DNA of 26,224 bases. It comes from a virus. Its lineage: Duplodnaviria; Caudoviricetes. The stretch spans positions 1 through 26,224 of IMG/VR virus record IMGVR_UViG_3300032319_000730. One strand, written 5' to 3'. Below, one piece after another: positions 9,107-23,057 of the stretch. The notes under the pieces are model-generated. The model was given only the letters and a program-made list of their open reading frames with translations. It did no database searches and was not told the DNA's origin. Each line of letters opens with the position of its first letter. Position 1 is the stretch's first letter. The position numbers and the translations under genes are program-made.

Positions 9107-9258
9107 TGGGGTCGCTCGACGACACAACACCATGGTTTGAATTTCTTTCCTACTGTGAGTGTTGTTGGTCACTCAAGGTTTCCCCATCCGTAGGGCGATT
9201 TACACGTTACCAAAACTACAAACTTAATTATGACCAACATTTCTCAAAGTCAAACTGA
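9106..9258 (+). CDS. 50-aa hypothetical protein
   Basis: Read manually: MGSLDDTTPWFEFLSYCECCWSLKVSPSVGRFTRYQNYK...; TAATG overlap. Confidence 0.6.
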   Translation: MGSLDDTTPWFEFLSYCECCWSLKVSPSVGRFTRYQNYKLNYDQHFSKSN

Positions 9259-9526
9259 CATTTGCACCGTTGTAGAAGAGGTAAAAGAGTTACTTCTAGA
9301 AAAAAATAAACGCTATGGGGATTCGGCCTTGAGCCCGGTGCGAATATTCAGTAAATGTTCGTCCGATGAAGCTATTCTTGTGCGTATGGATGACAAACTT
9401 AGCAGAATTCGCACAGCAGACCCAGAGGACGCTGAAGATGCTTACTTAGATTTACTAGGCTACTTAGTCCTATTCAAAGTTGCTCAAATGCAAAAACGAC
9501 GGGCCGAGGATTTCATTATCACATGA
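9230..9526 (+). CDS. nucleotide modification associated domain 1 (Nmad1/DUF1599) protein
   Basis: LLEKNKRYGDS...ILVRMDDKLSRI...EDAYLDLLGYLVL. Confidence 0.8.
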   Translation: MTNISQSQTDICTVVEEVKELLLEKNKRYGDSALSPVRIFSKCSSDEAILVRMDDKLSRIRTADPEDAEDAYLDLLGYLVLFKVAQMQKRRAEDFIIT

Positions 9527-10205: not shown

Positions 10206-10280
10206 GGGCGGTTTCCCGTACCTAACAGGGCGGTTCGCCCCCTTTACTTTTCGACCGAAAAGGGCTATGATTATATCATG
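10206..10280 (+). promoter_or_regulatory. 75-bp promoter/stem-loop element, copy 5
   Basis: GGGCGGTTTCCCGTACCTAACAGGGCGGTTCGCCCCC-TTTACT-17 nt-TATGAT-TATATC-ATG. Confidence 0.85.
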
Positions 10281-10889
10281 ATCAATACTGAACTCAAAAC
10301 CACTCTGTCCACCTCTTTTTTCCGGCGGTTTTGCCCGGACCCGACGGTGATGTACGACCTGGGCGACCTGTACGCTGAGCTCAACGCAAAGTTCTTCAAC
10401 GGGCAACTTCCCGTCTTGGCTGAAACGGTACGCACTGTGGACGGTGTGGAAAGAAAGACCTATCCTTCTCTGAAGTGGGACGGTCGGCTCGGTCGTCGCA
10501 CCCTTGGTGTTTACACCCCGGCTCGCAAACGTGGTCACGGTAAAATTCGCCTTGCCCGCCGAATTGCGGAGGATCCGGCAAAGACTCGCAGTGTTCTTCT
10601 TCACGAGATGCTTCACAAATTTCTTGACCTGAACAGCCTCGATGACGGAATTGCAGGCCATGGTCCGAATTTCATCTCGGTAGCAAAAGCGATCAACGAT
10701 CATTGTACCGAATGGGGCGTGAACTACCGTATCCACTTTTATGACGAGGAAATCACTCGTGAAGACCCTGTTTTCTACAGCGATGTCCTGAAGATGGAAA
10801 TTGACTGCCGCAAAGATCTCGACTTCGCGCGGAAAGTCCAATCCGTAATTCGCGCAGCATTCGACACCAACTACGAGTACCACCAGTGA
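10278..10889 (+). CDS. SprT-like zinc metalloprotease
   Basis: LNAKFFNGQLP, W.GRL.RRTLG, IRL, VLLHEMLH (HExxH), HGPNF. Confidence 0.85.
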   Translation: MINTELKTTLSTSFFRRFCPDPTVMYDLGDLYAELNAKFFNGQLPVLAETVRTVDGVERKTYPSLKWDGRLGRRTLGVYTPARKRGHGKIRLARRIAEDPAKTRSVLLHEMLHKFLDLNSLDDGIAGHGPNFISVAKAINDHCTEWGVNYRIHFYDEEITREDPVFYSDVLKMEIDCRKDLDFARKVQSVIRAAFDTNYEYHQ

Positions 10890-10893
10890 GTAA

Positions 10894-10948
10894 GGGGCGG
10901 AAATCCGCCCCATTCGCGTGTTTACTCACCCTTGGGCCAAGCTATCCT
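10894..10948 (+). promoter_or_regulatory. GGGGCGGA-AA-TCCGCCCC inverted repeat followed by TTTACT-16-TATCCT promoter-like sequence
   Basis: Perfect 8-bp inverted repeat (10894-10911) containing the GGGCGG box, upstream of the modification cluster. Confidence 0.55.
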
Positions 10949-10991
10949 GAAACGTGGGTACAAATGTGAGTGAACCACCGAATCTGCTACT

Positions 10992-12365
10992 ATGGTCAGA
11001 ACTATTAAACTGGATCAGCTGCAGTCGTTTGACAAGAACAAGTTGGGTGACCGCCCGACTTTAAACGACTGCAAAGAACTGATCAATGAAGATTGCGACA
11101 TTTACGCACCGGACGGAACTTTGGTCGTTGCTTTTCGCAAAGCTGCCGTGAAGTCCGCGAGCGAGATTTCCCCCGGTAAGAAAGATTATGAGTATTGGCG
11201 CTGGGCCTGCCGCTCCCTTCTTTCCGACCAACGGGGCATGGCATCCGGGAAAGAAATCTACACAAACATTGAAATTCGTACGACTTACGGTCAGAACGAG
11301 TTTCTGAGCCTTGCAGCGAAAGGTAAAGTTTCCTCTCTGGAGGAGGCTCTTGAGATCATTGAGGCGGATTCGAGACCTTCCCGTACCACGTACTACGTCG
11401 GAAAGGCAGAAAAAGCTGGATACGTAGATTTACAGGAAGTCGAGAAGTGGGACTCCCTTGTTCGCAAGAAGAGCACACCATTTGAACTTCGCACGGAAGC
11501 GATTCTGAAGAGGAGAAGTGCTAAACTCGCGTGGTTTGATTATTGGCTTCGCAATGAATGGGCTACCGCAGAGGATAAAGTTTCTGCTGCGAAACAGTGT
11601 AAGAAAACGTTCGTAACGAACCAGCCACGGTCAAACAAGACCTACTCTGCCGTGCTTGGAACGATTGATCGCAGCGGACGGACGCCTTTTGGGCGACTGA
11701 CTTCCCCTACGATGGAACGCTACTCGGACTTTGAATCGTTCGCCCCGTTCTACAAAGAGGTTGACAGTCTTGTGAAGAGCCTGTTTCCGAGTGAGTGGGA
11801 CATTCTCTCCAACCGCTTCAATACGGTGAAAGACGAGCGTTACAACCTCTTCGGGACGATTTATACCTCGATCACTTGCAACTACAACTTCCCAACTTTC
11901 TACCATCTCGACGGAAACAACGCCAAGAACGCTGTGGCTGCCCTGGTCACGTTTGACAAAGGCGACTACGAGGGAATGGACTTTGTGATGCCAGAACTTG
12001 GCTTCGCTTTCCACATGCGCCACGGGGACATCTTGATCGGTGACAACCAAGGTTACGTTCATGGGCAAACTGAGTTCATCGCCAAAGACGACACTGCCGA
12101 AAACTTGACTCTTGTATTCTATCAACGGGACTCCATTACTCTCCTCGACGATCTAGATTGCGAAGCTTGTCGCAGAAGTTTCATGGCTTACGTTCTTGAA
12201 AACCACCCTGAGAGGAGCAATGGGGAAGCGAAGTGGACCGGTTCATTCCCGGGAATGTGGTCCAGCCCCGAATGGCTGACATACAAGAAATTACAAGATA
12301 AAGAACATTGCTCAAACACGAACATCAAAGGTCATCTCGACACATACAACACCCTTGAAAACTGA
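10992..12365 (+). CDS. TET/JBP-family Fe(II)-dependent dioxygenase (5-methylpyrimidine dioxygenase-like)
   Basis: YTSITCNYNFPTFY-H305-L-D307, G.YEG...V.PE.G, GDILIGD...H357-GQT, LTLVFYQR. N-terminal DCDIY.PDG.LVVAFRK also fits the family. Confidence 0.85.
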   Translation: MVRTIKLDQLQSFDKNKLGDRPTLNDCKELINEDCDIYAPDGTLVVAFRKAAVKSASEISPGKKDYEYWRWACRSLLSDQRGMASGKEIYTNIEIRTTYGQNEFLSLAAKGKVSSLEEALEIIEADSRPSRTTYYVGKAEKAGYVDLQEVEKWDSLVRKKSTPFELRTEAILKRRSAKLAWFDYWLRNEWATAEDKVSAAKQCKKTFVTNQPRSNKTYSAVLGTIDRSGRTPFGRLTSPTMERYSDFESFAPFYKEVDSLVKSLFPSEWDILSNRFNTVKDERYNLFGTIYTSITCNYNFPTFYHLDGNNAKNAVAALVTFDKGDYEGMDFVMPELGFAFHMRHGDILIGDNQGYVHGQTEFIAKDDTAENLTLVFYQRDSITLLDDLDCEACRRSFMAYVLENHPERSNGEAKWTGSFPGMWSSPEWLTYKKLQDKEHCSNTNIKGHLDTYNTLEN

Positions 12366-12366
12366 A

Positions 12367-13194
12367 ATGGATTATCAGATTGCCATCCCAACTTACGGAC
12401 GACCTGACGGAGTCAAAAAGCATGTTCTGAATTATCTTGAAAAAACCGACGTCGATCTGTCGCGAGTGACTTTGTTCGTCGCAAACAGCGAAGAGGAGGA
12501 AAAATATCAAAGTTCAAACCCCACATACAATATCGTTGTTGGTGAGAAGGGTTTGACAAATCAGCGCCACTTTATTTCTAACTATTACGACAAAGGAACA
12601 GCTGTTTTCTCATTTGACGACGATGTTAGCGCCGTTGAGGAACTTGAACTCCTGAAAGAGCTGTCTGGGACGCAAAAGCCGCTCGACCACCCCTGCCGCC
12701 TAAAGCCTGTAGAAGAACTCTCCGCGCTAATTGAGCGTGGATTTCGCATGAGCCAGCGTCGAGAGATCGGTTTGTTTGGTTTCTACGCTGTGCGAAATAA
12801 AGGGTTTCTTCACCCGAAAATCACGACTGGCCTGAAATTTATTATGGGCCATGCTTTTGGTTTCTATGCAGGCGACCCTGCTTTTGAACGGATTACAGAG
12901 TACAGCATGAAGGACGATTATTTCCTTTCGCTCTATCACAACGTTCACGGGAATGGTACTCTTCGGTTTGACAACATTTGCGTGAAAGCAAAACAGCACA
13001 CCGGAAGCGGTGGAACCTGCGAAGATCTCGAGAAGAAACTTCAGATCAACAATAGCACTGTTGAAAAAATTTGCGCAGAATTTCCAGAGCTTGCGAGCCC
13101 CAAATCTCGAAGAACTCAGGATGAATGGCTTTCGCGTTATTCTGAAATTCGCCTCAAGCCACAAACGAAAGAAACAATCGCACTCACTAACTGA
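12367..13194 (+). CDS. TET-associated GT-A glycosyltransferase (TAGT/GREB1-like)
   Basis: YQIAIPTYGRP, GLTNQRHFI, FDDD, LFGFY...LKFI.G, KDDY..SL...G..RF, GG; immediately downstream of the TET/JBP gene. Confidence 0.85.
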   Translation: MDYQIAIPTYGRPDGVKKHVLNYLEKTDVDLSRVTLFVANSEEEEKYQSSNPTYNIVVGEKGLTNQRHFISNYYDKGTAVFSFDDDVSAVEELELLKELSGTQKPLDHPCRLKPVEELSALIERGFRMSQRREIGLFGFYAVRNKGFLHPKITTGLKFIMGHAFGFYAGDPAFERITEYSMKDDYFLSLYHNVHGNGTLRFDNICVKAKQHTGSGGTCEDLEKKLQINNSTVEKICAEFPELASPKSRRTQDEWLSRYSEIRLKPQTKETIALTN

Positions 13195-13200
13195 ACGAAT

Positions 13201-13243
13201 GGGCGGTTTTCCGCCCTTTACGACTGACTTTGAAAACTATACT
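13201..13243 (+). promoter_or_regulatory. GGGCGG-TTTT-CCGCCC hairpin plus TTAC-N15-CTATAC promoter-like motif
   Basis: Inverted repeat 13201-13216; TTTACG 13217-13222; TATACT 13238-13243. Confidence 0.55.
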
Positions 13244-13264
13244 TAGAACAGCTTCTGACTTTTC

Positions 13265-13621
13265 ATGATTCCTGACCCTAAGAAAACTATTGTCTTTGAC
13301 GTTGACGACACGATTCTGAGTACGGTGAATCGCGATTACGAAAATTCGCGACCGAAGATGGAAGTTATCACGGGTATGCGAACAATGAAGGAGGCTGGCT
13401 GGACAATCATTCTTCATACGGCTCGTGGAATGGGTCGCTCAAACGGAAATATCGAGAGTGTTCGCAAAGAAGTTATCGAAGAACTCGAAAAGTTCTGCAC
13501 TAACTACGATGTGCCCTACGATGAGATTCAGATTGGAAAACCTTGGGCGGCGTACTACGTAGACGACAAAGCGATGACCCCTGAGCAATTTGCCGCAAAA
13601 TACACTCAAATCGCACAATGA
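13265..13621 (+). CDS. HAD phosphatase, EcbF/BcbF (capsule biosynthesis phosphatase) type
   Basis: IVFDVDDTI, G..IILHTARGM, VPYDEIQIGKPW..YYVDDKAM.PEQF. Confidence 0.88.
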   Translation: MIPDPKKTIVFDVDDTILSTVNRDYENSRPKMEVITGMRTMKEAGWTIILHTARGMGRSNGNIESVRKEVIEELEKFCTNYDVPYDEIQIGKPWAAYYVDDKAMTPEQFAAKYTQIAQ

Positions 13622-14331
13622 AGAACGCACTCATTCTTGCTGCCGGTCGTAGCACTCGGTTCGGCCGAAATAAACTTGAGGAGAAGTTTGACGGGATGTC
13701 ACTCCCTTACCTGGCAGCCAAGTTCGCTCTTGAAAACGGTGCGGAAAACATCTATCTGACGCTTTCACGTTCAGCGGTGAAAACCGATGGCGCACGAATC
13801 TACCACCCTGTTCTTGAAGAGGTATCAAAGATTTGTGACCCGATTGTGCGCTTCCAGAGTGAAGACACGTATGGCCCTGGGGCTGCCATTACAACGTGGG
13901 CCGGTGTGATTGATGGGCCGTTTACCGTATTGTTTGGGGACAACTATTATCAAGGGGTAATGCCAATTGCAGAACGAGTTCTGCTGAATTCAGATCTTGA
14001 CGATTCAGTTTATTTCACCTACCTGCACAAATCACTGAGTCCGCGGAACCTGCAGCTGGCTACCGTGATTGAAGATTATGTGGTTGAAAAACCCCATGGC
14101 CAACTGGAAGGTCGTTACTTCTGCGGCTTCGCGCGTTTTCCAGCCGGTTACTTGAACACGATTGGTGAGCTGCGTAAGAGTGATCGTGGCGAGGTTGAAA
14201 TCACGGATATGATCAACATGGCCAAGACGCGGGAGGCAATCTCGCTTAGTTCCTTTCGTGTAACTTGGGGCGACCTAACTTACGAGGCTGATTGCGCCCG
14301 GATTCGGGAGCTTATTCGTGAAGGGAAGTAG
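13618..14331 (+). CDS. sugar-1-phosphate nucleotidyltransferase (RmlA/RfbA-like)
   Basis: ALILAAGRSTRF..NK, Q....GPG, LFGDN, VVEKP, SDRGEVEITD, W.D motifs. Confidence 0.85.
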   Translation: MKNALILAAGRSTRFGRNKLEEKFDGMSLPYLAAKFALENGAENIYLTLSRSAVKTDGARIYHPVLEEVSKICDPIVRFQSEDTYGPGAAITTWAGVIDGPFTVLFGDNYYQGVMPIAERVLLNSDLDDSVYFTYLHKSLSPRNLQLATVIEDYVVEKPHGQLEGRYFCGFARFPAGYLNTIGELRKSDRGEVEITDMINMAKTREAISLSSFRVTWGDLTYEADCARIRELIREGK

Positions 14332-15064
14332 TGGTGCGACCCTCGATTTTTCCGGGGATTTTATAAGGAAGAAATGCAAAGACGCGAAGGAGCAGTGCGA
14401 ATGGTTTCGCATTGTTTCTCGGTATCCGTTGGAGCCAGGAATCCGTTTGCCTCGGACTATTCGTGCCTCGGACGAAGAGTATGACATTGAGTTTATTGAG
14501 GGTGTTTGTGGAACTCAGATTGAGTCTACAAGGTTGATTGACACATTGGTGGATCAGATACTTGTCTGGTCGCATATACCCGCTGTACGAACTTCTGACT
14601 GGAATTCGTATCTGGACCGTCTACACGTTGAGCATGTGGCGTTAACCGACAGCGACATAGTTCGACGGATTTTCGAATATATCGACGATATACCACCTCT
14701 GCCTTCCTCTCTATCGCATGGTGATCTGACTCTTGAAAACGTGATCGTGGAAAATAATGGGGGAATCGTTCTGATCGACCCAAATTTCAAGCAAAATTTG
14801 TTTCAGTCTTACGTGCTTGATCTTGGAAAGTTACTTCAGTCCGTGCACAGTGATTACCACAGGTTGTTTAACTCACATCCTGGGGGCGACCCTGCGCCTC
14901 TCTGCTCCCACCTTCGCCAAAGGCTGGGCAAACCCCTGTGGACCCAAGCCCTGGCAGCTGAGATGTCGCACGTGGTCCGCCTGCGCAAGTACCGACCCAG
15001 CGCCCAGCGCCCGGAGGTAGACCGCCTGCTGGCCCGTCTGCTGGCTGAGGCTCAGGGCGGTTAA
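14318..15064 (+). CDS. APH/choline-kinase-like phosphotransferase
   Basis: YDIEFIEG, Brenner motif HGDLTLENVI, VLIDPN, DLGKLLQS. The stop lies inside element copy 6. Confidence 0.85.
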   Translation: MKGSSGATLDFSGDFIRKKCKDAKEQCEWFRIVSRYPLEPGIRLPRTIRASDEEYDIEFIEGVCGTQIESTRLIDTLVDQILVWSHIPAVRTSDWNSYLDRLHVEHVALTDSDIVRRIFEYIDDIPPLPSSLSHGDLTLENVIVENNGGIVLIDPNFKQNLFQSYVLDLGKLLQSVHSDYHRLFNSHPGGDPAPLCSHLRQRLGKPLWTQALAAEMSHVVRLRKYRPSAQRPEVDRLLARLLAEAQGG

Positions 15065-15129
15065 CCGTACCTTTTAGGGCGGTTCGCCCCCTTTACTTTC
15101 CGGTCAAAATGAGCCATAATAAAGTCATG
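15055..15129 (+). promoter_or_regulatory. 75-bp promoter/stem-loop element, copy 6
   Basis: GGGCGGTTAACCGTACCTTTTAGGGCGGTTCGCCCCC-TTTACT-17 nt-CATAAT-AAAGTC-ATG. Confidence 0.85.
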
Positions 15130-16145: not shown

Positions 16146-18146
16146 ATGACAGAACAACTCACCTCGACCAGCCTAACCTCCCAAATGAAGGAGGATTACA
16201 TGGCTTATTCGATGGCCGTCCTACTTGGTCGCGCCATCCCAGACATGTATGACGGTCTGAAACCCGCTCAGCGCCGAGTCCTCCAGACAATGTTTGAAGA
16301 AGGTCTGGCACCCGAGAAACGCTACGTAAAGTGCGCTCGCGTCACTGGCCTCGCGATGGGTTACTACCACCCCCACGGCGATTGCTACGGCACTCTCGTA
16401 AACATGGCAACATCTTGGAACAACAACGTTCCTTGGGTCGACGGCCATGGTAACTTCGGTAGCACCGTTGATGGCCCAGCCGCAGCACGATACACGGAGT
16501 GCAAACTTCGGCCTTCAGCTGTTGACCTGCTTCTGCAAAACAGAACAACGTGGGAAACAAAGGATAACTACGACGGATCCCGGCAAGAAGCAGTACGCTT
16601 TGATAGCGCTATTCCTTCGGTGTTGCTTAATGGCGACAGCGGAATCGCTGTGGGATTCGCTACCAAATTGGCCCCGCACAGTCTTCGCTCGATTGTGGAG
16701 GCAATGCAACTGGCTTGCAAAATAGGAGCCAAACCTGAAGAAATTGCCAAAGCACGAGAAATCCTGGTTCCCGACTTTCCGACCGGTTGCGAAATTGTCA
16801 GAGATGAACAACTTACTCTTTACACTCAAACTGGCAGCGGCAACATCCGCTGTCGTGCGCGCCATGAACTGGGTGTTCAGAAGCGAGACGGTAGGGCCAA
16901 AGATCGCCCGACAGTATCGTTCACTCATTTACCGCCTGGGGTCAACCCTGAAAAACTCGGTGAGCAAGTCCGTGACGGTCTCGAGAAAGGAAAACTTGAT
17001 GGAATTGCCGAAGTCGTCGATGAGTCTGATCTCACCGGAGATCGTTTCACAGTTGTGGCAAAGCCCGGTGTCGGAATGGAATCGCTTGTTAAGCAACTCT
17101 ACACTTACACCGACCTTGAAGTTAAGTATTCAGCGAAAACGCTGGTTATTGACGGTACAAGACCCATCGAGCTCAGCCCAGTTGAAATTTGTCAGAAATG
17201 GTTCAACTGGAGGATGGATCGCATGGCGGTCCAATACGAACACGAACTGAAAGTTACTGAAGCTCGTTTCCATATCGTCGAAGGCCTGATTAAAGCCATC
17301 GATAAATTAGATGCGATTATCAAGAAGATTCGTGCGGCGGCAAATAAAACAGAGGCGTTGACGGCACTCATGGGTGCCCCCTTTAAGTTCAGTCGCGCCC
17401 AAGCAGAAGCAATTCTAGAGATGCGACTGCGACAGCTGACAAACCTGGACCAGTCTGAGTTGGAGGATGAAGCAGCTGGTCTGGAAGAAAGTATCGAGAA
17501 TTTGTTTGAACTAGCGAATAACTCCTTGACCCGGCAAGTTCGGCTGTACAAGCAAACTACAGAGCTGGCCAAACGCCACGGAGAGGCTCGCAGGAGCCCT
17601 CTGGTGGAGCCTCCGGTGGGCTACTCGGCCCCTGGCCCACGCACTGGGCAGAAGCGCCCTCCAGCGCCTGCCAAACCACGGTTTATGAAGGTGGACCTGA
17701 AGAAGGGCACAGTGGAACAATCCAAGGGTCCAAGAGGGGCCATGGTTGTTGATCCCAAGGAGAAAGTTATTCTGATGTCGGAAGACGGAATCCTGAAGAA
17801 AGTCCCCGCCAATTTCAAAGGACCTGTGTCCACCGGATACAGTCCGGTTACGCTGGCAAAGCGTGAAGCGGAAGTCACTCTGCGAAAGTACCTCGCCGTG
17901 TTTAAGCTCGACGGGCAACTCAAAGCGGTTTCGCTGAGCGGAGAAGACCTTTGCAAAACTACGAGCAAAGGAAAACCTTGGCTGCCCAAATTGGCCGAGT
18001 TGGTTTTCTTCGGTGAGGGGAACTACACTGTCCCTTGGGCTTCTTCGCGGAAAAAGCAGGTTGTGTTGAGCTTGTCCTCGGTGAAAACTGGGCGTCCTGG
18101 CTCAAAAGGGGTGAAAGTAGCTAATCTAGACGAAGTGAAATTGTGA
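16146..18146 (+). CDS. gyrA: type IIA topoisomerase subunit A (GyrA/ParC family) with short C-terminal domain
   Basis: RAIPD..DGLKPAQRR, VKCARVTG, YHPHGD, DGHGNFGS, AAARYTE (catalytic Tyr), GIAVGFAT, PDFPTG, QAEAILEMRLRQLT. GyrA versus ParC cannot be resolved from motifs. Confidence 0.92.
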   Translation: MTEQLTSTSLTSQMKEDYMAYSMAVLLGRAIPDMYDGLKPAQRRVLQTMFEEGLAPEKRYVKCARVTGLAMGYYHPHGDCYGTLVNMATSWNNNVPWVDGHGNFGSTVDGPAAARYTECKLRPSAVDLLLQNRTTWETKDNYDGSRQEAVRFDSAIPSVLLNGDSGIAVGFATKLAPHSLRSIVEAMQLACKIGAKPEEIAKAREILVPDFPTGCEIVRDEQLTLYTQTGSGNIRCRARHELGVQKRDGRAKDRPTVSFTHLPPGVNPEKLGEQVRDGLEKGKLDGIAEVVDESDLTGDRFTVVAKPGVGMESLVKQLYTYTDLEVKYSAKTLVIDGTRPIELSPVEICQKWFNWRMDRMAVQYEHELKVTEARFHIVEGLIKAIDKLDAIIKKIRAAANKTEALTALMGAPFKFSRAQAEAILEMRLRQLTNLDQSELEDEAAGLEESIENLFELANNSLTRQVRLYKQTTELAKRHGEARRSPLVEPPVGYSAPGPRTGQKRPPAPAKPRFMKVDLKKGTVEQSKGPRGAMVVDPKEKVILMSEDGILKKVPANFKGPVSTGYSPVTLAKREAEVTLRKYLAVFKLDGQLKAVSLSGEDLCKTTSKGKPWLPKLAELVFFGEGNYTVPWASSRKKQVVLSLSSVKTGRPGSKGVKVANLDEVKL

Positions 18147-20273: not shown

Positions 20274-23057
20274 ATGAAAAACTCAACGTCCGTGAAAAAA
20301 ACACAACTTGGATACCCCGTCTTGTCCGACGACCTGCACGAAAAGATTTTCGGTGCACAAAAACCAAAAGAAATGTCTCGGCAAGCACTTCAGAAGGCTG
20401 AGAGCCTTCTTAAAGAATTCAATATTACCACCCCTGTTGATTACCCTGCCGGTCTATACGACGGCCCACTGCCCCTACCAGACCTGAAAGCCAGGTCGTT
20501 GAACAACCATTTCAACAAGATCGCACAAGAGCAAGTTGATCGCTATAAGATTCTGGGAAACAAGTTTTCCCAGTGCGAACTTCCTCCTCTTCCGCCAGCT
20601 GAACAGTTTCGGTTTGAAGCAGGCTGGACTCGTTATGAACTGGTGGAAGGCGAGTGGCAAATCACGAAAGTAGAGTTTCCTCAAGAAGAAGCCTTCACTT
20701 TTGATACGGAAACCTACGTTCACGGCGGTTCCTTCCCGATCATCGGAACAGCACTCAGCGAGAAAGCAGCCTATGTTTGGCTGGCTGCTGAGCTAATTGA
20801 TCCTACAATTCCCGAGGACGAGTGGGACCAGCATGAGCTGATACCGATCGGGACCAACCGTTTTATCCCAGGTCACAATATTAGCTACGACCGAGTTCGT
20901 GCTCGTGAGGGTTACAACCTTGACAGAACTGAGCCAGAGAATTTCTATTTTGATACACTATCCGCTCACATTGGTGTGTCTGGCCTTGCTAGCGGCCAAC
21001 GTTGGCTTTACGTTCTGGCAGGTAAAGATCCAGATGACCTCACAGCAGAAGAAAAGCGAAAGCTAAGGTACGCACCAAAGTGGCTTGACCAAGGTTCCAC
21101 TAACAGTCTTGTGCAGTGCTACAACTTTCATGTGGCGGCTGTGCGAAAATACTTCGGCGAGAATGTGAAAGAGTTGGGTGCGGATGACAAGAAAGTTCGT
21201 AACATCTTCGTCGATGCAACCAGTCTGACCCAAATTCGTCAAGTTCTGACTTCGGCGCTTGATTACGCTCTGAAAGATGCTTTCTACACTGCCGAGTTAT
21301 TTCAAGCCCTATGGCCAAAGTACCTGGACAGCACTCCTTCTCTGGTCGCTCTCTGTGGGCATTACCATCTAAATGGTTCGATAGTTCCACTTGTTGAAAA
21401 CTGGTCGGAGTGGATTGAGAACGTCGAGGTCGTTTACAAGAAATACAACGAAGAGATGACTCAGATTTGCAAAGATCTGGTTTGGAAAACGTACGAAGAG
21501 TGGCGCATTCTTTATCTCAACGACCCCGAGAAAGCTGAGAGGTGGACTCAACGCGACCCCTGGATTTCTCAACTCGACTGGGAAGTGAAAGCGACGAAAG
21601 GTAAGTACGCACACATTCCTACGTGGGTTCGTCCGTTCATTAAGGATGAAAATCAGCACATCGGCGTTAAGTCTAACCTTGCCCACTTGATGCTGAAACT
21701 CAAGTATGAAGGCACTCCGATGGTGCTCACAAAAACCAACGGCTGGTGTTACCACGACTCTGATTCAAACCTTGTTAAGATTCCGCACCCGAAAGGGAAT
21801 GGCGACAATGTTGGCGGTGTGCTGAGCAAGGATTTCGTCGAAGATATGGCTGTGGGTCGGTTGAGTAGCGATCTCCCTGAGGCGAAACGGGCACTGGAAA
21901 TTGCCAATGCTGTGTCCTACTGGACTTCCGTGCGCAAACGTGTGATGGATCGCATTGTTATGGGGGTGCAAAACCCTTATGGCGAAAACGCTCTCGTTAC
22001 TTTGCCGGAGATTCTGTGCCACGGCACCGTTACTCGGCGAACGGTAGAATCGCTCATGGTTACCATGTGCTCTACCAAGAATTGGCGTATCGGAACTGAA
22101 CTGAAAACCCGAGTGAAAGCACCGGATGGGTGGAAGATTGTCGGTGCCGACTTTGACGGTCAAGAAATGCAGATCGCCTCGATCTACAGCGACAAGTGGG
22201 AAGGCGGCCACGTCGGTTGTTCACCCTTTGGCTACAACGTCCTGAGTGGCTCGAAAGAGGCAGGCACGGACCCACACAGCGCCCTCGCCAAGCTGGCTGG
22301 AGTGGATCGGGACACGGCTAAGATCGCCGGTTTCGCCGTTCTATACGGGGCTGGTGTCCGTGCTGTGCAGACCTACATTCGCCGCAAGTACCCTGAAAAG
22401 TCGCCTACAGAGGTGAAGAACTTTGCGTACCGAATTCTAGAGGGCAAGAAGGGCAAGCAGCGGTCAGGCTTGTATGAAGGTGGCTCGGATTCCGGTTGTT
22501 TCAACTATATGGAGGAAATTGCGATGAGAACCCGCGTCCCGCAACTTCCTTGCCTGGGGACAAAGATCTCGACCGCGATGCGACCCTCGGCTGTGGGGAA
22601 CGATTTCAAAACTGGGCGGGTGAATTGGACGATCCAATCCTCGGGTGCGGAGATTCTTTCGATCTTCCTAACTTCGGTTCACTGGCTTGCCGCCGAGTAC
22701 AAGATCCCGGCCCGATTCATTTTGAGCATCCATGACGAGATCTGGTTTATGACTCCAGATCGTTACGCGGAGCAGTTTGCTGTTCTGTTCCAAATCGCTC
22801 ACATGTACACCTGGTCGCTGTTTCAATCTTCGGTGGACATTCCAGAATTGCCCCTGTCTCGTGCCTATTTCTCGAGCGTGGCGATTGATACTCGCATTCG
22901 CAAATCTCCGAAAGAAAGAACTGTTACACCGTCGAATCCTGGTGGTGACAAAGAACCTGGTGGGACTGAGTACTCGATGCAGGAACTCTCCGAAATCGGT
23001 GCAATCGACAAACTGACCACCCGTTACAACGCTATTCAAAAAGGTTTGATCAAATGA
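20274..23057 (+). CDS. family A DNA polymerase, mitochondrial Pol gamma (POLG/MIP1)-like
   Basis: Exo motifs FDTE, GHNISYDR, YALKD; pol motifs GADFDGQE, R..AKIAGFAVLYGAG, SIHDEI; gamma-specific blocks LS..LHEKIFG, GWTRY, DPWISQLDW, KIPHPKGNGDNVG, GTVTRRTVE, RVNWTIQSSG, TPSNP. Confidence 0.95.
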   Translation: MKNSTSVKKTQLGYPVLSDDLHEKIFGAQKPKEMSRQALQKAESLLKEFNITTPVDYPAGLYDGPLPLPDLKARSLNNHFNKIAQEQVDRYKILGNKFSQCELPPLPPAEQFRFEAGWTRYELVEGEWQITKVEFPQEEAFTFDTETYVHGGSFPIIGTALSEKAAYVWLAAELIDPTIPEDEWDQHELIPIGTNRFIPGHNISYDRVRAREGYNLDRTEPENFYFDTLSAHIGVSGLASGQRWLYVLAGKDPDDLTAEEKRKLRYAPKWLDQGSTNSLVQCYNFHVAAVRKYFGENVKELGADDKKVRNIFVDATSLTQIRQVLTSALDYALKDAFYTAELFQALWPKYLDSTPSLVALCGHYHLNGSIVPLVENWSEWIENVEVVYKKYNEEMTQICKDLVWKTYEEWRILYLNDPEKAERWTQRDPWISQLDWEVKATKGKYAHIPTWVRPFIKDENQHIGVKSNLAHLMLKLKYEGTPMVLTKTNGWCYHDSDSNLVKIPHPKGNGDNVGGVLSKDFVEDMAVGRLSSDLPEAKRALEIANAVSYWTSVRKRVMDRIVMGVQNPYGENALVTLPEILCHGTVTRRTVESLMVTMCSTKNWRIGTELKTRVKAPDGWKIVGADFDGQEMQIASIYSDKWEGGHVGCSPFGYNVLSGSKEAGTDPHSALAKLAGVDRDTAKIAGFAVLYGAGVRAVQTYIRRKYPEKSPTEVKNFAYRILEGKKGKQRSGLYEGGSDSGCFNYMEEIAMRTRVPQLPCLGTKISTAMRPSAVGNDFKTGRVNWTIQSSGAEILSIFLTSVHWLAAEYKIPARFILSIHDEIWFMTPDRYAEQFAVLFQIAHMYTWSLFQSSVDIPELPLSRAYFSSVAIDTRIRKSPKERTVTPSNPGGDKEPGGTEYSMQELSEIGAIDKLTTRYNAIQKGLIK

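What the first reader, a model, noticed from the sequence alone, without database searches (positions are those of the whole stretch)
10992..15064. Five-gene DNA hypermodification cluster with its own NDP-sugar synthesis trio
Seen: contiguous co-oriented TET/JBP dioxygenase, TET-associated GT-A glycosyltransferase, EcbF/BcbF HAD phosphatase, RmlA-like nucleotidyltransferase and APH-like kinase; the last three overlap each other. Established: phage TET/JBP plus GT pairs hydroxylate T or 5mC in DNA and then glycosylate it (base J-like chemistry), and kinase -> phosphatase -> nucleotidyltransferase is the logic of NDP-heptose synthesis (HddA/GmhB/HddC). Inference: the phage makes a donor sugar-nucleotide the host may lack and installs an unusual glycosylated base as restriction/CRISPR armour. 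From memory, and needing verification: the Pasteurella bcb/ecb and E. coli K4 kfo capsule loci that carry similar enzymes make fructofuranose-decorated polymers, so a fructosyl or other ketosyl base is one concrete hypothesis.
Basis: partly seen in the sequence, partly recalled or inferred. Interest (0 to 1): 0.9.

Follow-up and report, generated by a model that had tools for sequence, protein, structure and literature searches.

The report
Cyanophage sugar-thymine cluster, atypical TET oxygenase
A freshwater virus, probably of cyanobacteria, carries five genes that likely oxidise thymine in its own DNA and cap it with a home-made non-glucose sugar (best guess a seven-carbon one), and its oxidising enzyme lacks an arginine that studied relatives use to hold their co-substrate, so both the modified base and the chemistry may be new.

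Summary
Observation confirmed: five intact genes, TET/JBP, TAGT, EcbF-like HAD, RmlA-like nucleotidyltransferase, APH-fold kinase. The cultured Synechococcus phage S-CBWM1 (gp8-12) has the same order. The transferase subclade is tied to the trio (14 of 16 close loci complete, 2 cut by contig ends; 0 of 44 distant loci). The target is most likely thymine: no C5-methyltransferase in 5 whole records, and sister loci swap transferase plus trio for known T-hypermodification enzymes. The concept is in print: HAD+APH+nucleotidyltransferase sets make heptosyl-5hmC (Pyle contig 53) and UDP-arabinose (AfhE/F). New here: a thymine target, a GT-A transferase, a separate RmlA-like enzyme, no isomerase. The sugar is unresolved. 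The kinase is nearest HAD-kinase fusions of the heptose-type layout, not the fructose (BcbE-like) or arabinose enzymes, so heptose (possibly sedoheptulose) leads, about 35%. The nucleotidyltransferase gene has been swapped alone between strains. The scan earlier noted a distant GT-B version of the sugar module and the promoter cassettes on other DNA, not this cluster. New variant of a known kind.

The parts
10895..10910 (+). GC hairpin right after the SprT-like gene stop, head of the TET-GT block (cassette-type element)
   Evidence: 2 matches, 0.01 expected
10992..12365 (+). TET/JBP-fold oxygenase, 457 aa; Fe ligands H305, D307, H357; N371 in place of the 2-oxoglutarate C5-binding Arg; long helical insert about 95-210; likely makes 5hmU from T in DNA
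   Evidence: pLDDT 92.6; Foldseek: CcTet, CMD1, TET2, NgTET1
12367..13194 (+). TAGT (GT-A) glycosyltransferase, 275 aa, invariant D84-D85-D86 and D184; likely transfers the sugar to 5hmU
13201..13243 (+). GC hairpin (13201-13216) followed by promoter-like TTTACG..TATACT (15-nt spacer, not reported by the 16-18 nt scan); likely gives the trio its own transcript
   Evidence: a similar element upstream of the HAD in 6 of 7 related loci printed
13265..13621 (+). EcbF/BcbF/AfhF-like HAD phosphatase, 118 aa, D12-x-D14, T52, K92, D100-D101 conserved; likely removes the distal phosphate of a sugar bisphosphate
   Evidence: (38% to Bas47 AfhF-type gene)
13618..14331 (+). RmlA-like nucleotidyltransferase, 237 aa; R14, K19, G107-D-N, E157-K-P, D219 kept; the Tyr-Gly of RmlA's sugar loop reads Leu-Gln; exchanged as a single gene between strains
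14318..15064 (+). APH/choline-kinase-fold kinase, 248 aa, invariant H134-G-D136, N141, D154; likely phosphorylates the anomeric OH of a sugar phosphate
15077..15120 (+). Hairpin (15077-15089) and sigma-70-like site (15092-15120) closing the cluster and opening the next block
   Evidence: repeated elsewhere in the phage (table 5)

Best explanation
The cluster likely modifies thymine after replication: the oxygenase would turn some T in phage DNA into 5-hydroxymethyluracil, the kinase, phosphatase and nucleotidyltransferase would turn a host sugar phosphate into a non-glucose NDP-sugar, and the TAGT would attach that sugar, giving a base-J analogue that likely shields the genome from host nucleases. 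Shown: genes, families, linkage, absence of C5-MTase/isomerase/thymidylate-synthase-type hydroxymethylase in the records searched. Inferred: T as target (about 85%), order kinase then phosphatase then nucleotidyltransferase (about 85%), a donor taken straight from central metabolism without a phage isomerase (about 75%). Sugar, my odds given the pathway: heptose, most simply sedoheptulose from sedoheptulose 7-phosphate, 35%; fructose 20%; arabinose 15%; ribose or another pentose 15%; glucose/mannose 15%.
For: Order conserved in S-CBWM1 gp8-12 at 36/64/41/49/44% identity. GT-anchored loci: 14 of 16 with >=58% identity have the whole trio directly downstream, the other 2 end inside the cluster; 0 of 44 with <=40% have any trio gene. 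NTase-anchored: a kinase lies in 63 of 63 viral and 76 of 80 metagenome loci, and 61 of the 63 viral loci hold a recognisable glycosyltransferase of a DNA-modifying type. 64 of the 150 best kinase relatives are HAD-kinase fusions, 1 is a full NTase-kinase fusion. TET-anchored: 10 of 26 loci carry an amino acid:DNA transferase (ADDT), 9 of these with a P-loop kinase, enzymes shown to act on 5hmU (PMC8989533); 0 of 26 hit my C5-MTase-like profile. Whole records: C5-MTase 0 of 5, SIS 0 of 5, SIS_2 0 of 5, thymidylate synthase 0 of 5, ThyX 4 of 5. Precedents: Pyle contig 53, AfhE/F.
Against: No biochemistry. The oxygenase lacks the C5-binding Arg, so ordinary 2-oxoglutarate turnover is not assured. 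In several relatives 2-3 other genes lie between TET and GT (L033-L039), and a hairpin cassette splits TET-GT from the trio. Loci are redundant (near-identical contigs count separately). Only 2 of the records searched are complete or nearly so. The same kinase/NTase subfamily serves a cell-surface glycan locus in 3 Paenibacillus genomes. A host C5-MTase could supply 5mC.
Confidence: 0.72

Rival explanations
1. The oxygenase does not use 2-oxoglutarate. With Arg replaced by Asn and the pocket relined (F331, Q359, T373), it would use another 2-oxo acid or reductant (CMD1 uses ascorbate) to make 5hmU or a different T adduct that the GT then glycosylates. This is a variant of the main model, not exclusive of it.
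For: N371 aligns gap-free with the Arg of hTET2 in the PDB alignment; spacing to V375 (+4) and Y377 (+6) equals R1896/V1900/Y1902 (PMC8256090; PMC7854593). 130 of 143 distinct long homologues have N/S/C/A; all 130 have F331, all 13 Arg-bearing ones L331, N359, S373. The Arg-less proteins form one branch (support 90), keep HxD..H, and are the only TET found in G001 and G002. No compensating Lys/Arg on the inner strands.
Against: Conserved basic residues in the insert (K138, K178, K204/205) or neutral N297/Q359/N371 could still hold the carboxylate; no coordinates were available to test it. 2-oxoglutarate ligands are subfamily-specific (PMC7854593). G001 and G002 are only 52-61% complete. Arg-less and Arg-bearing enzymes sit next to the same GT and ADDT partners, so the product is probably the same hydroxyl handle.
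Confidence: 0.3
2. True base J or a plain hexose: the trio is a bypass that makes NDP-glucose (or mannose) from the hexose 6-phosphate, and the GT is an ordinary JGT-like glucosyltransferase.
For: The NTase keeps RmlA's E-K-P and G-D-N motifs and is closest to glucose-1-phosphate thymidylyltransferases. The GT has weak similarity to phrog_842, a glucosyltransferase.
Against: 44 of 44 distant TAGT loci do without the trio. The Tyr-Gly sugar loop is replaced. Paenibacillus L094 keeps this module beside a normal RmlA. Both characterised HAD/APH modules make non-glucose donors.
Confidence: 0.12
3. Fructosyl base: fructose 6-P to 2,6-bisphosphate to 2-phosphate to NDP-fructose.
For: bcbE and bcbG are needed for the fructose side chain, bcbF predicted (PMC13552107). 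The HAD scores higher on TIGR01689 (89 bits) than Bas47 AfhF does (50). No isomerase is needed.
Against: BcbE-like proteins are NTase-kinase fusions like AfhE; window kinase profile gives them 10-22 bits, NTase profile none. BcbE itself was not compared, only two plasmid capsule homologues of unknown sugar.
Confidence: 0.15
4. The target is 5-methylcytosine made by a host or unlinked methyltransferase.
For: Some phage T-dioxygenases also oxidise 5mC (PMC13229309 abstract). The trio occurs beside C5-MTase-like genes in other phages.
Against: No C5-MTase in 5 whole records incl. complete S-CBWM1; ADDT/P-loop kinase partners in the same oxygenase clade; no CpG or GpC depletion in the window (1.07, 0.94).
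Confidence: 0.1
5. The trio feeds virion or host-surface glycosylation and sits beside TET-GT by chance.
For: Own promoter-like cassette; bacterial homologues lie in a GT2/GtrA/membrane-protein surface-glycan locus.
Against: The trio travels with four different base-modification settings (long TET+TAGT, ParB+short TET+TAGT-like, AGT-like GT-B, GT-B+C5-MTase-like) and no other GT is near in the window.
Confidence: 0.06

Closest known systems
Pyle et al. contig 53 (bioRxiv 10.1101/2023.12.21.572611; sections 7, 9, 30 part 1 and passages read)
   Same: TET-made hydroxymethyl handle plus HAD, APH-like kinase, nucleotidyltransferase and GT, all required; product mono- and di-heptosyl base
   Different: There: 5hmC from a C5-MTase, fused HAD-APH, cytidylyltransferase, GT-B. 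Here: no MTase (likely T), three separate genes, RmlA-like NTase, GT-A TAGT. Sequences of contig 53 not seen.
AfhE/AfhF UDP-arabinofuranose module of RB69, DLP3, Bas47, HY126 (PMC13326640; sections 25, 27-29 read)
   Same: Kinase, HAD phosphatase, NTase make a donor for phage DNA; HAD 38% identical to the Bas47 gene
   Different: Needs a phage arabinose-5-P isomerase (none here), NTase-kinase fusion with an NTase unrelated at profile level, pre-replicative 5-hydroxycytosine, GT-B transferases
Phage T-dioxygenases, clades C1/C2 (PMC13229309; sections 5, 6, 11, 12 read; PMC8256090 part 2 of 6)
   Same: TET/JBP without C5-MTase, with GT or AADT neighbours, making 5hmU after replication
   Different: 457 aa against about 290-300; no ParB; lacks the C5-binding Arg that those papers report as conserved; glycosylated T products not described in the parts read
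Base J system of trypanosomes (JBP + JGT)
   Same: T to 5hmU, then a GT-A transferase
   Different: Glucose from a common donor (recalled); here a dedicated donor pathway
Pasteurella BcbE/F/G fructose side chain (PMC13552107; abstract and passages read)
   Same: EcbF-BcbF-like HAD, APH-fold kinase, NTase
   Different: Capsule, fused BcbE-type enzyme, distant kinase and NTase
CMD1 (PMC7854593; passages read)
   Same: TET fold, HxD..H kept, no basic residue for the C5-carboxyl

Membership tests
TET/JBP (5mYOX) superfamily | Pfam PF12851 above cut-off and TET-type DSBH fold | tested here: met
   65.4 bits vs 34.9; Foldseek top hits all TETs
TET/JBP (5mYOX) superfamily | HxD...H iron triad | tested here: met
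   H305, D307, H357 in 179 of 179 aligned rows
Canonical 2-oxoglutarate-dependent TET/JBP | Arg binding the C5-carboxyl (hTET2 R1896) | tested here: not met
   N371
Canonical 2-oxoglutarate-dependent TET/JBP | Arg binding the C1-carboxyl (hTET2 R1261) | tested here: inconclusive
   R81, R227, R230, R235 are conserved; which one corresponds was not established
Phage 5mC dioxygenases (clades A/B) | Linked C5-methyltransferase | tested here: not met
   0 of 5 whole records; 0 of 26 loci
ParB-dependent T-dioxygenases (C1) | Adjacent ParB | tested here: not met
   none beside long TETs; present beside short TETs in L046, L068, L079, L082
Phage T-dioxygenases | T to 5hmU activity on DNA | not testable with these tools
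   context only
TAGT glycosyltransferases | PF20691 above cut-off; DxD-type motif | tested here: met
   36.8 vs 27.5 bits; D84-D86 invariant
EcbF-BcbF (TIGR01689) | Score above curated cut-off | tested here: not met
   89.2 vs 162; a plasmid capsule HAD reaches 197
RmlA glucose-1-phosphate thymidylyltransferase | Curated score; Tyr-Gly sugar loop | tested here: not met
   25.8 vs 320 bits; Leu-Gln in the loop
Afh arabinosylation system | Arabinose-5-P isomerase, 5-hydroxy-dCMP synthase, NTase-kinase fusion | tested here: not met
Contig 53 heptose system | C5-MTase, fused HAD-APH, cytidylyltransferase, GT-B | tested here: not met
   separate genes, RmlA-like NTase, GT-A
GDP-heptose pathway GmhA/HddA/GmhB/HddC | GmhA isomerase; GHMP-fold kinase (recalled); GmhB phosphatase | tested here: not met
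   no GmhA; kinase is APH-fold; no GmhB model hit

The most novel reading that the evidence does not exclude
A widespread cyanophage clade of TET/JBP enzymes has abandoned 2-oxoglutarate, the host's nitrogen-status signal, for another co-substrate, and makes a thymine handle that is capped with sedoheptulose drawn straight from the Calvin/pentose-phosphate pool (or, in sister phages, with inositol): a ketosyl base J and a new oxygenase chemistry.
Probability: 0.15. Interest if true: 0.88.

Novelty: new variant of a known kind. Interest (0 to 1): 0.6.

Why it matters
It points to a sugar-capped thymine in a phage that can be grown (S-CBWM1), so one mass-spectrometry run on virion DNA would name the base. 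It defines a portable three-gene donor module plugged into four different base-modification systems and a bacterial surface-glycan locus. And it exposes a large TET/JBP branch without the arginine that the papers read call conserved, which makes co-substrate choice in this enzyme family directly testable.

Tried and rejected
Composition: dinucleotide and 4-mer counts show palindrome avoidance (CGCG, GTAC, TGCA, GGCC) but no signal that names the modified base. Promoter/terminator scan: 4 and 6 sites against 3.5 and 4.9 by chance, no evidence by itself. PDB sequence search with the kinase profile: nothing under E 0.01. Atlas searches named only APH and TAGT/GREB1-related viral clusters. Kinase and HAD trees are largely unresolved at depth, with long branches; not used to assign a sugar. 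A search of 401 genomes of the Paenibacillus order found no further NTase of this subfamily beyond the 3 known. No RNA holder listed. No structure of the kinase was obtained, and no coordinates of the TET model were available, so the pocket was judged from alignment and secondary structure only. Iyer et al. 2013 (recalled as the source of TAGT) and the Cell Reports version of Pyle et al. are not held; bioRxiv supplements are closed and the PMC8256090 supplement was too large: they may already show this gene order or an Arg-less enzyme. Literature searches that did not return this cluster: (listings only); supplements of PMC13229309 have no 'CBWM1', 'EcbF', 'Synechococcus' or 'R1896' but do count APH, HAD and NTP-transferase domains near 5mYOX. 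Rejected: membership in the Afh, Bcb, GDP-heptose and contig 53 systems.


Full report
Observation. The five ORFs are real and intact. Pfam places 10992-12365 in Tet_JBP and 12367-13194 in TAGT above their cut-offs, and 14318-15064 in APH; 13265-13621 hits TIGR01689 below its cut-off, and 13618-14331 hits RmlA/GlmU-type models below theirs. The GT starts at the ATG at 12367. The trio overlaps by 4 and 14 nt. A GC hairpin lies before TET and another in the 70-nt gap before the HAD (2 found, 0.01 expected); a similar hairpin with a promoter-like pair precedes the HAD in 6 of 7 relatives printed, so TET-GT and the trio likely form two transcription blocks. A contig from an independent freshwater study spans 10800-15083.

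The phage. The window is a 26-kb virus fragment. Its DNA polymerase is 57% identical to that of Synechococcus phage S-CBWM1, and the 8 listed of 11 hits are all cyanophages. S-CBWM1 gp8-12 repeat the five genes in order at 36, 64, 41, 49 and 44% identity. A cyanobacterial host is inferred.

Linkage. Three anchors were used; loci are redundant, so counts are contigs, not independent events. GT anchor (60 loci): of 16 loci at 58% identity or more, 14 have HAD-NTase-kinase directly downstream and 2 end inside the cluster; none of 44 at 40% or less has a trio gene. NTase anchor: a kinase is present in 63 of 63 viral and 76 of 80 metagenome loci. Among the 63 viral loci, 14 have long TET + TAGT, 4 have ParB + short TET + a TAGT-like gene, 1 an AGT-like GT-B, 42 a GT-B mostly with a C5-MTase-like gene, 2 neither. 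TET anchor (26 loci): 8 have GT + trio, 10 have ADDT, 2 GT only, 1 a P-loop kinase only, 5 none of these (3 of them cut short). Among the 150 best kinase relatives, 64 are fused to this HAD type. The trio is thus one portable donor module, tied here to this GT subclade. Against: in L033-L039 two or three genes separate TET from GT, and three Paenibacillus genomes use a related HAD-kinase + NTase in a GT2/GtrA surface-glycan locus.

Which base. No C5-MTase, SIS or SIS_2 isomerase was found in S-CBWM1 (complete) and four IMG/VR records (51-98% complete), no thymidylate-synthase-type hydroxymethylase in a similar set of five, and ThyX in 4 of 5 (positive controls rang). Sister loci with the same oxygenase clade carry ADDT and a P-loop kinase, which act on 5hmU (PMC8989533, passages). 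Phage TET/JBP without a methyltransferase oxidise T (PMC13229309). T is therefore the likely target; the product would be a base-J analogue.

Which sugar. Two modules of this logic are published. AfhE/AfhF make UDP-arabinofuranose from arabinose 5-P supplied by a phage isomerase (PMC13326640). Contig 53 of Pyle et al. has a HAD-APH fusion, a cytidylyltransferase and a GT-B, all needed for mono- and di-heptosyl-5hmC. Pasteurella bcbE/bcbG are needed for fructose (PMC13552107). A profile from 19 window-type kinases scores HAD-kinase fusions 70-150 bits, among them gp4 of Agathobaculum phage AB434P2, which has the contig 53 layout with an RfaE-like cytidylyltransferase, against 18 for Bas47 AfhE and 10-22 for two BcbE-like capsule proteins. 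The NTase profile hits neither AfhE nor BcbE-like N-domains; the enzyme is RmlA-like with the Tyr-Gly loop replaced by Leu-Gln. No isomerase lies in any locus other than Bas47. Of the three Paenibacillus drafts, one has a GmhA-like gene near cut-off and none a KdsD/KpsF; the control S. elongatus did not ring for gmhA. This favours a donor drawn directly from central metabolism. Sedoheptulose 7-P gives the heptose mass without an isomerase and is a Calvin-cycle intermediate (own knowledge). I put heptose at 35%, fructose 20%, arabinose 15%, other pentose 15%, hexose 15%. This is inference; the trees do not resolve it.

The oxygenase is atypical. The model (pLDDT 92.6) matches TET structures, and H305, D307, H357, N310, V375 and Y377 are invariant. 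But position 371, which aligns with the Arg of hTET2's last strand and sits 4 and 6 residues before V375 and Y377 as R1896 does before V1900 and Y1902, is Asn. Of 143 distinct long homologues 130 have N, S, C or A and 13 have R (the set was seeded with the window's protein, so the ratio is not a census; 36 of 179 rows were dropped as duplicates or short). All 130 have F331; all 13 have L331, N359 and S373. The Arg-less proteins form one branch and are the only TET seen in two partial genomes. PMC8256090 states that all its phage TETs keep this Arg. CMD1, which has no basic residue for the C5-carboxyl, uses ascorbate. A changed co-substrate is possible (30%); compensation from the insert cannot be excluded without coordinates. 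S-CBWM1 gp8 keeps the Arg.

A single-gene swap. The window's NTase is 97% identical (DNA) to that of L005/L096, whose other four genes are 66-84% identical, but 75% to L103/L104, which match 97-99% elsewhere; runs X4 and X5 show the diverged allele too. The gene was exchanged alone, with breaks near its ends; the reason is unknown.

Verdict. Real, coherent and testable, but a new combination of known parts: TET/JBP + GT + HAD/APH/NTase donor synthesis is published for cytosine, and PMC13229309 tallies APH, HAD and NTP-transferase domains near 5mYOX. I found no description of this cluster, of a glycosylated T made this way in a phage, or of the Arg-less branch in the searches listed under Tried and rejected; supplements and papers I could not open may hold one. 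New variant of a known kind; interest 0.6.

Noticed in passing
L008 11443-14281; also L009-L013, L018, L019, L027: Same Arg-less oxygenase clade followed by ADDT, an inositol-3-phosphate synthase (TIGR03450 362 bits), a 129-aa unknown and often a P-loop kinase: suggests inositol linked to thymine; 'inositol' does not occur in PMC8989533 main text.
   Followed up: partly
window 13618-14331: Nucleotidyltransferase gene exchanged on its own between strains (97% to a distant phage, 75% to the closest strain).
   Followed up: partly
L022, L023, L024, L026, L028, L029 (e.g. L028 9503-10990 and 11378-12865): Two tandem long TET/JBP paralogues, both with the Arg; in L029 the second is split in two ORFs.
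   Followed up: no
L046, L068, L079, L082, L118: ParB + short TET + the same trio + a distant TAGT-like gene: a ParB-dependent T-dioxygenase with a sugar module.
   Followed up: partly
L043, L107, L109: AGT-like GT-B + trio between gyrA/parC and psbA, with no TET or hydroxymethylase in the locus.
   Followed up: no
L047-L090 (most): HAD + kinase + NTase + GT-B + epimerase + C5-MTase-like gene in large phages, with a KdsA-like synthase in 27 of 63 viral loci.
   Followed up: partly
L093-L095 (Paenibacillus): Bacterial HAD-kinase fusion + this NTase subfamily + GT2 + GtrA + 530-aa unknown in a surface-glycan locus; sugar unknown.
   Followed up: partly
L236 1314-4500 (Agathobaculum phage AB434P2): Cultured phage with HAD-kinase fusion, RfaE-like cytidylyltransferase, GT-B and a thymidylate synthase homologue: a growable test case for the heptose pathway.
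   Followed up: partly
window 10278-10889: SprT-like metalloprotease lies upstream of the oxygenase here and in S-CBWM1 (45%) and many relatives.
   Followed up: no
window 9230-9526: phrog_1485 protein (98 aa), recalled as a nucleotide pyrophosphatase-like domain; not tested.
   Followed up: no
window 20274-23057 and 16146-18146: Mitochondrial-type DNA polymerase gamma and a GyrA/ParC subunit, as in S-CBWM1-like cyanophages.
   Followed up: partly
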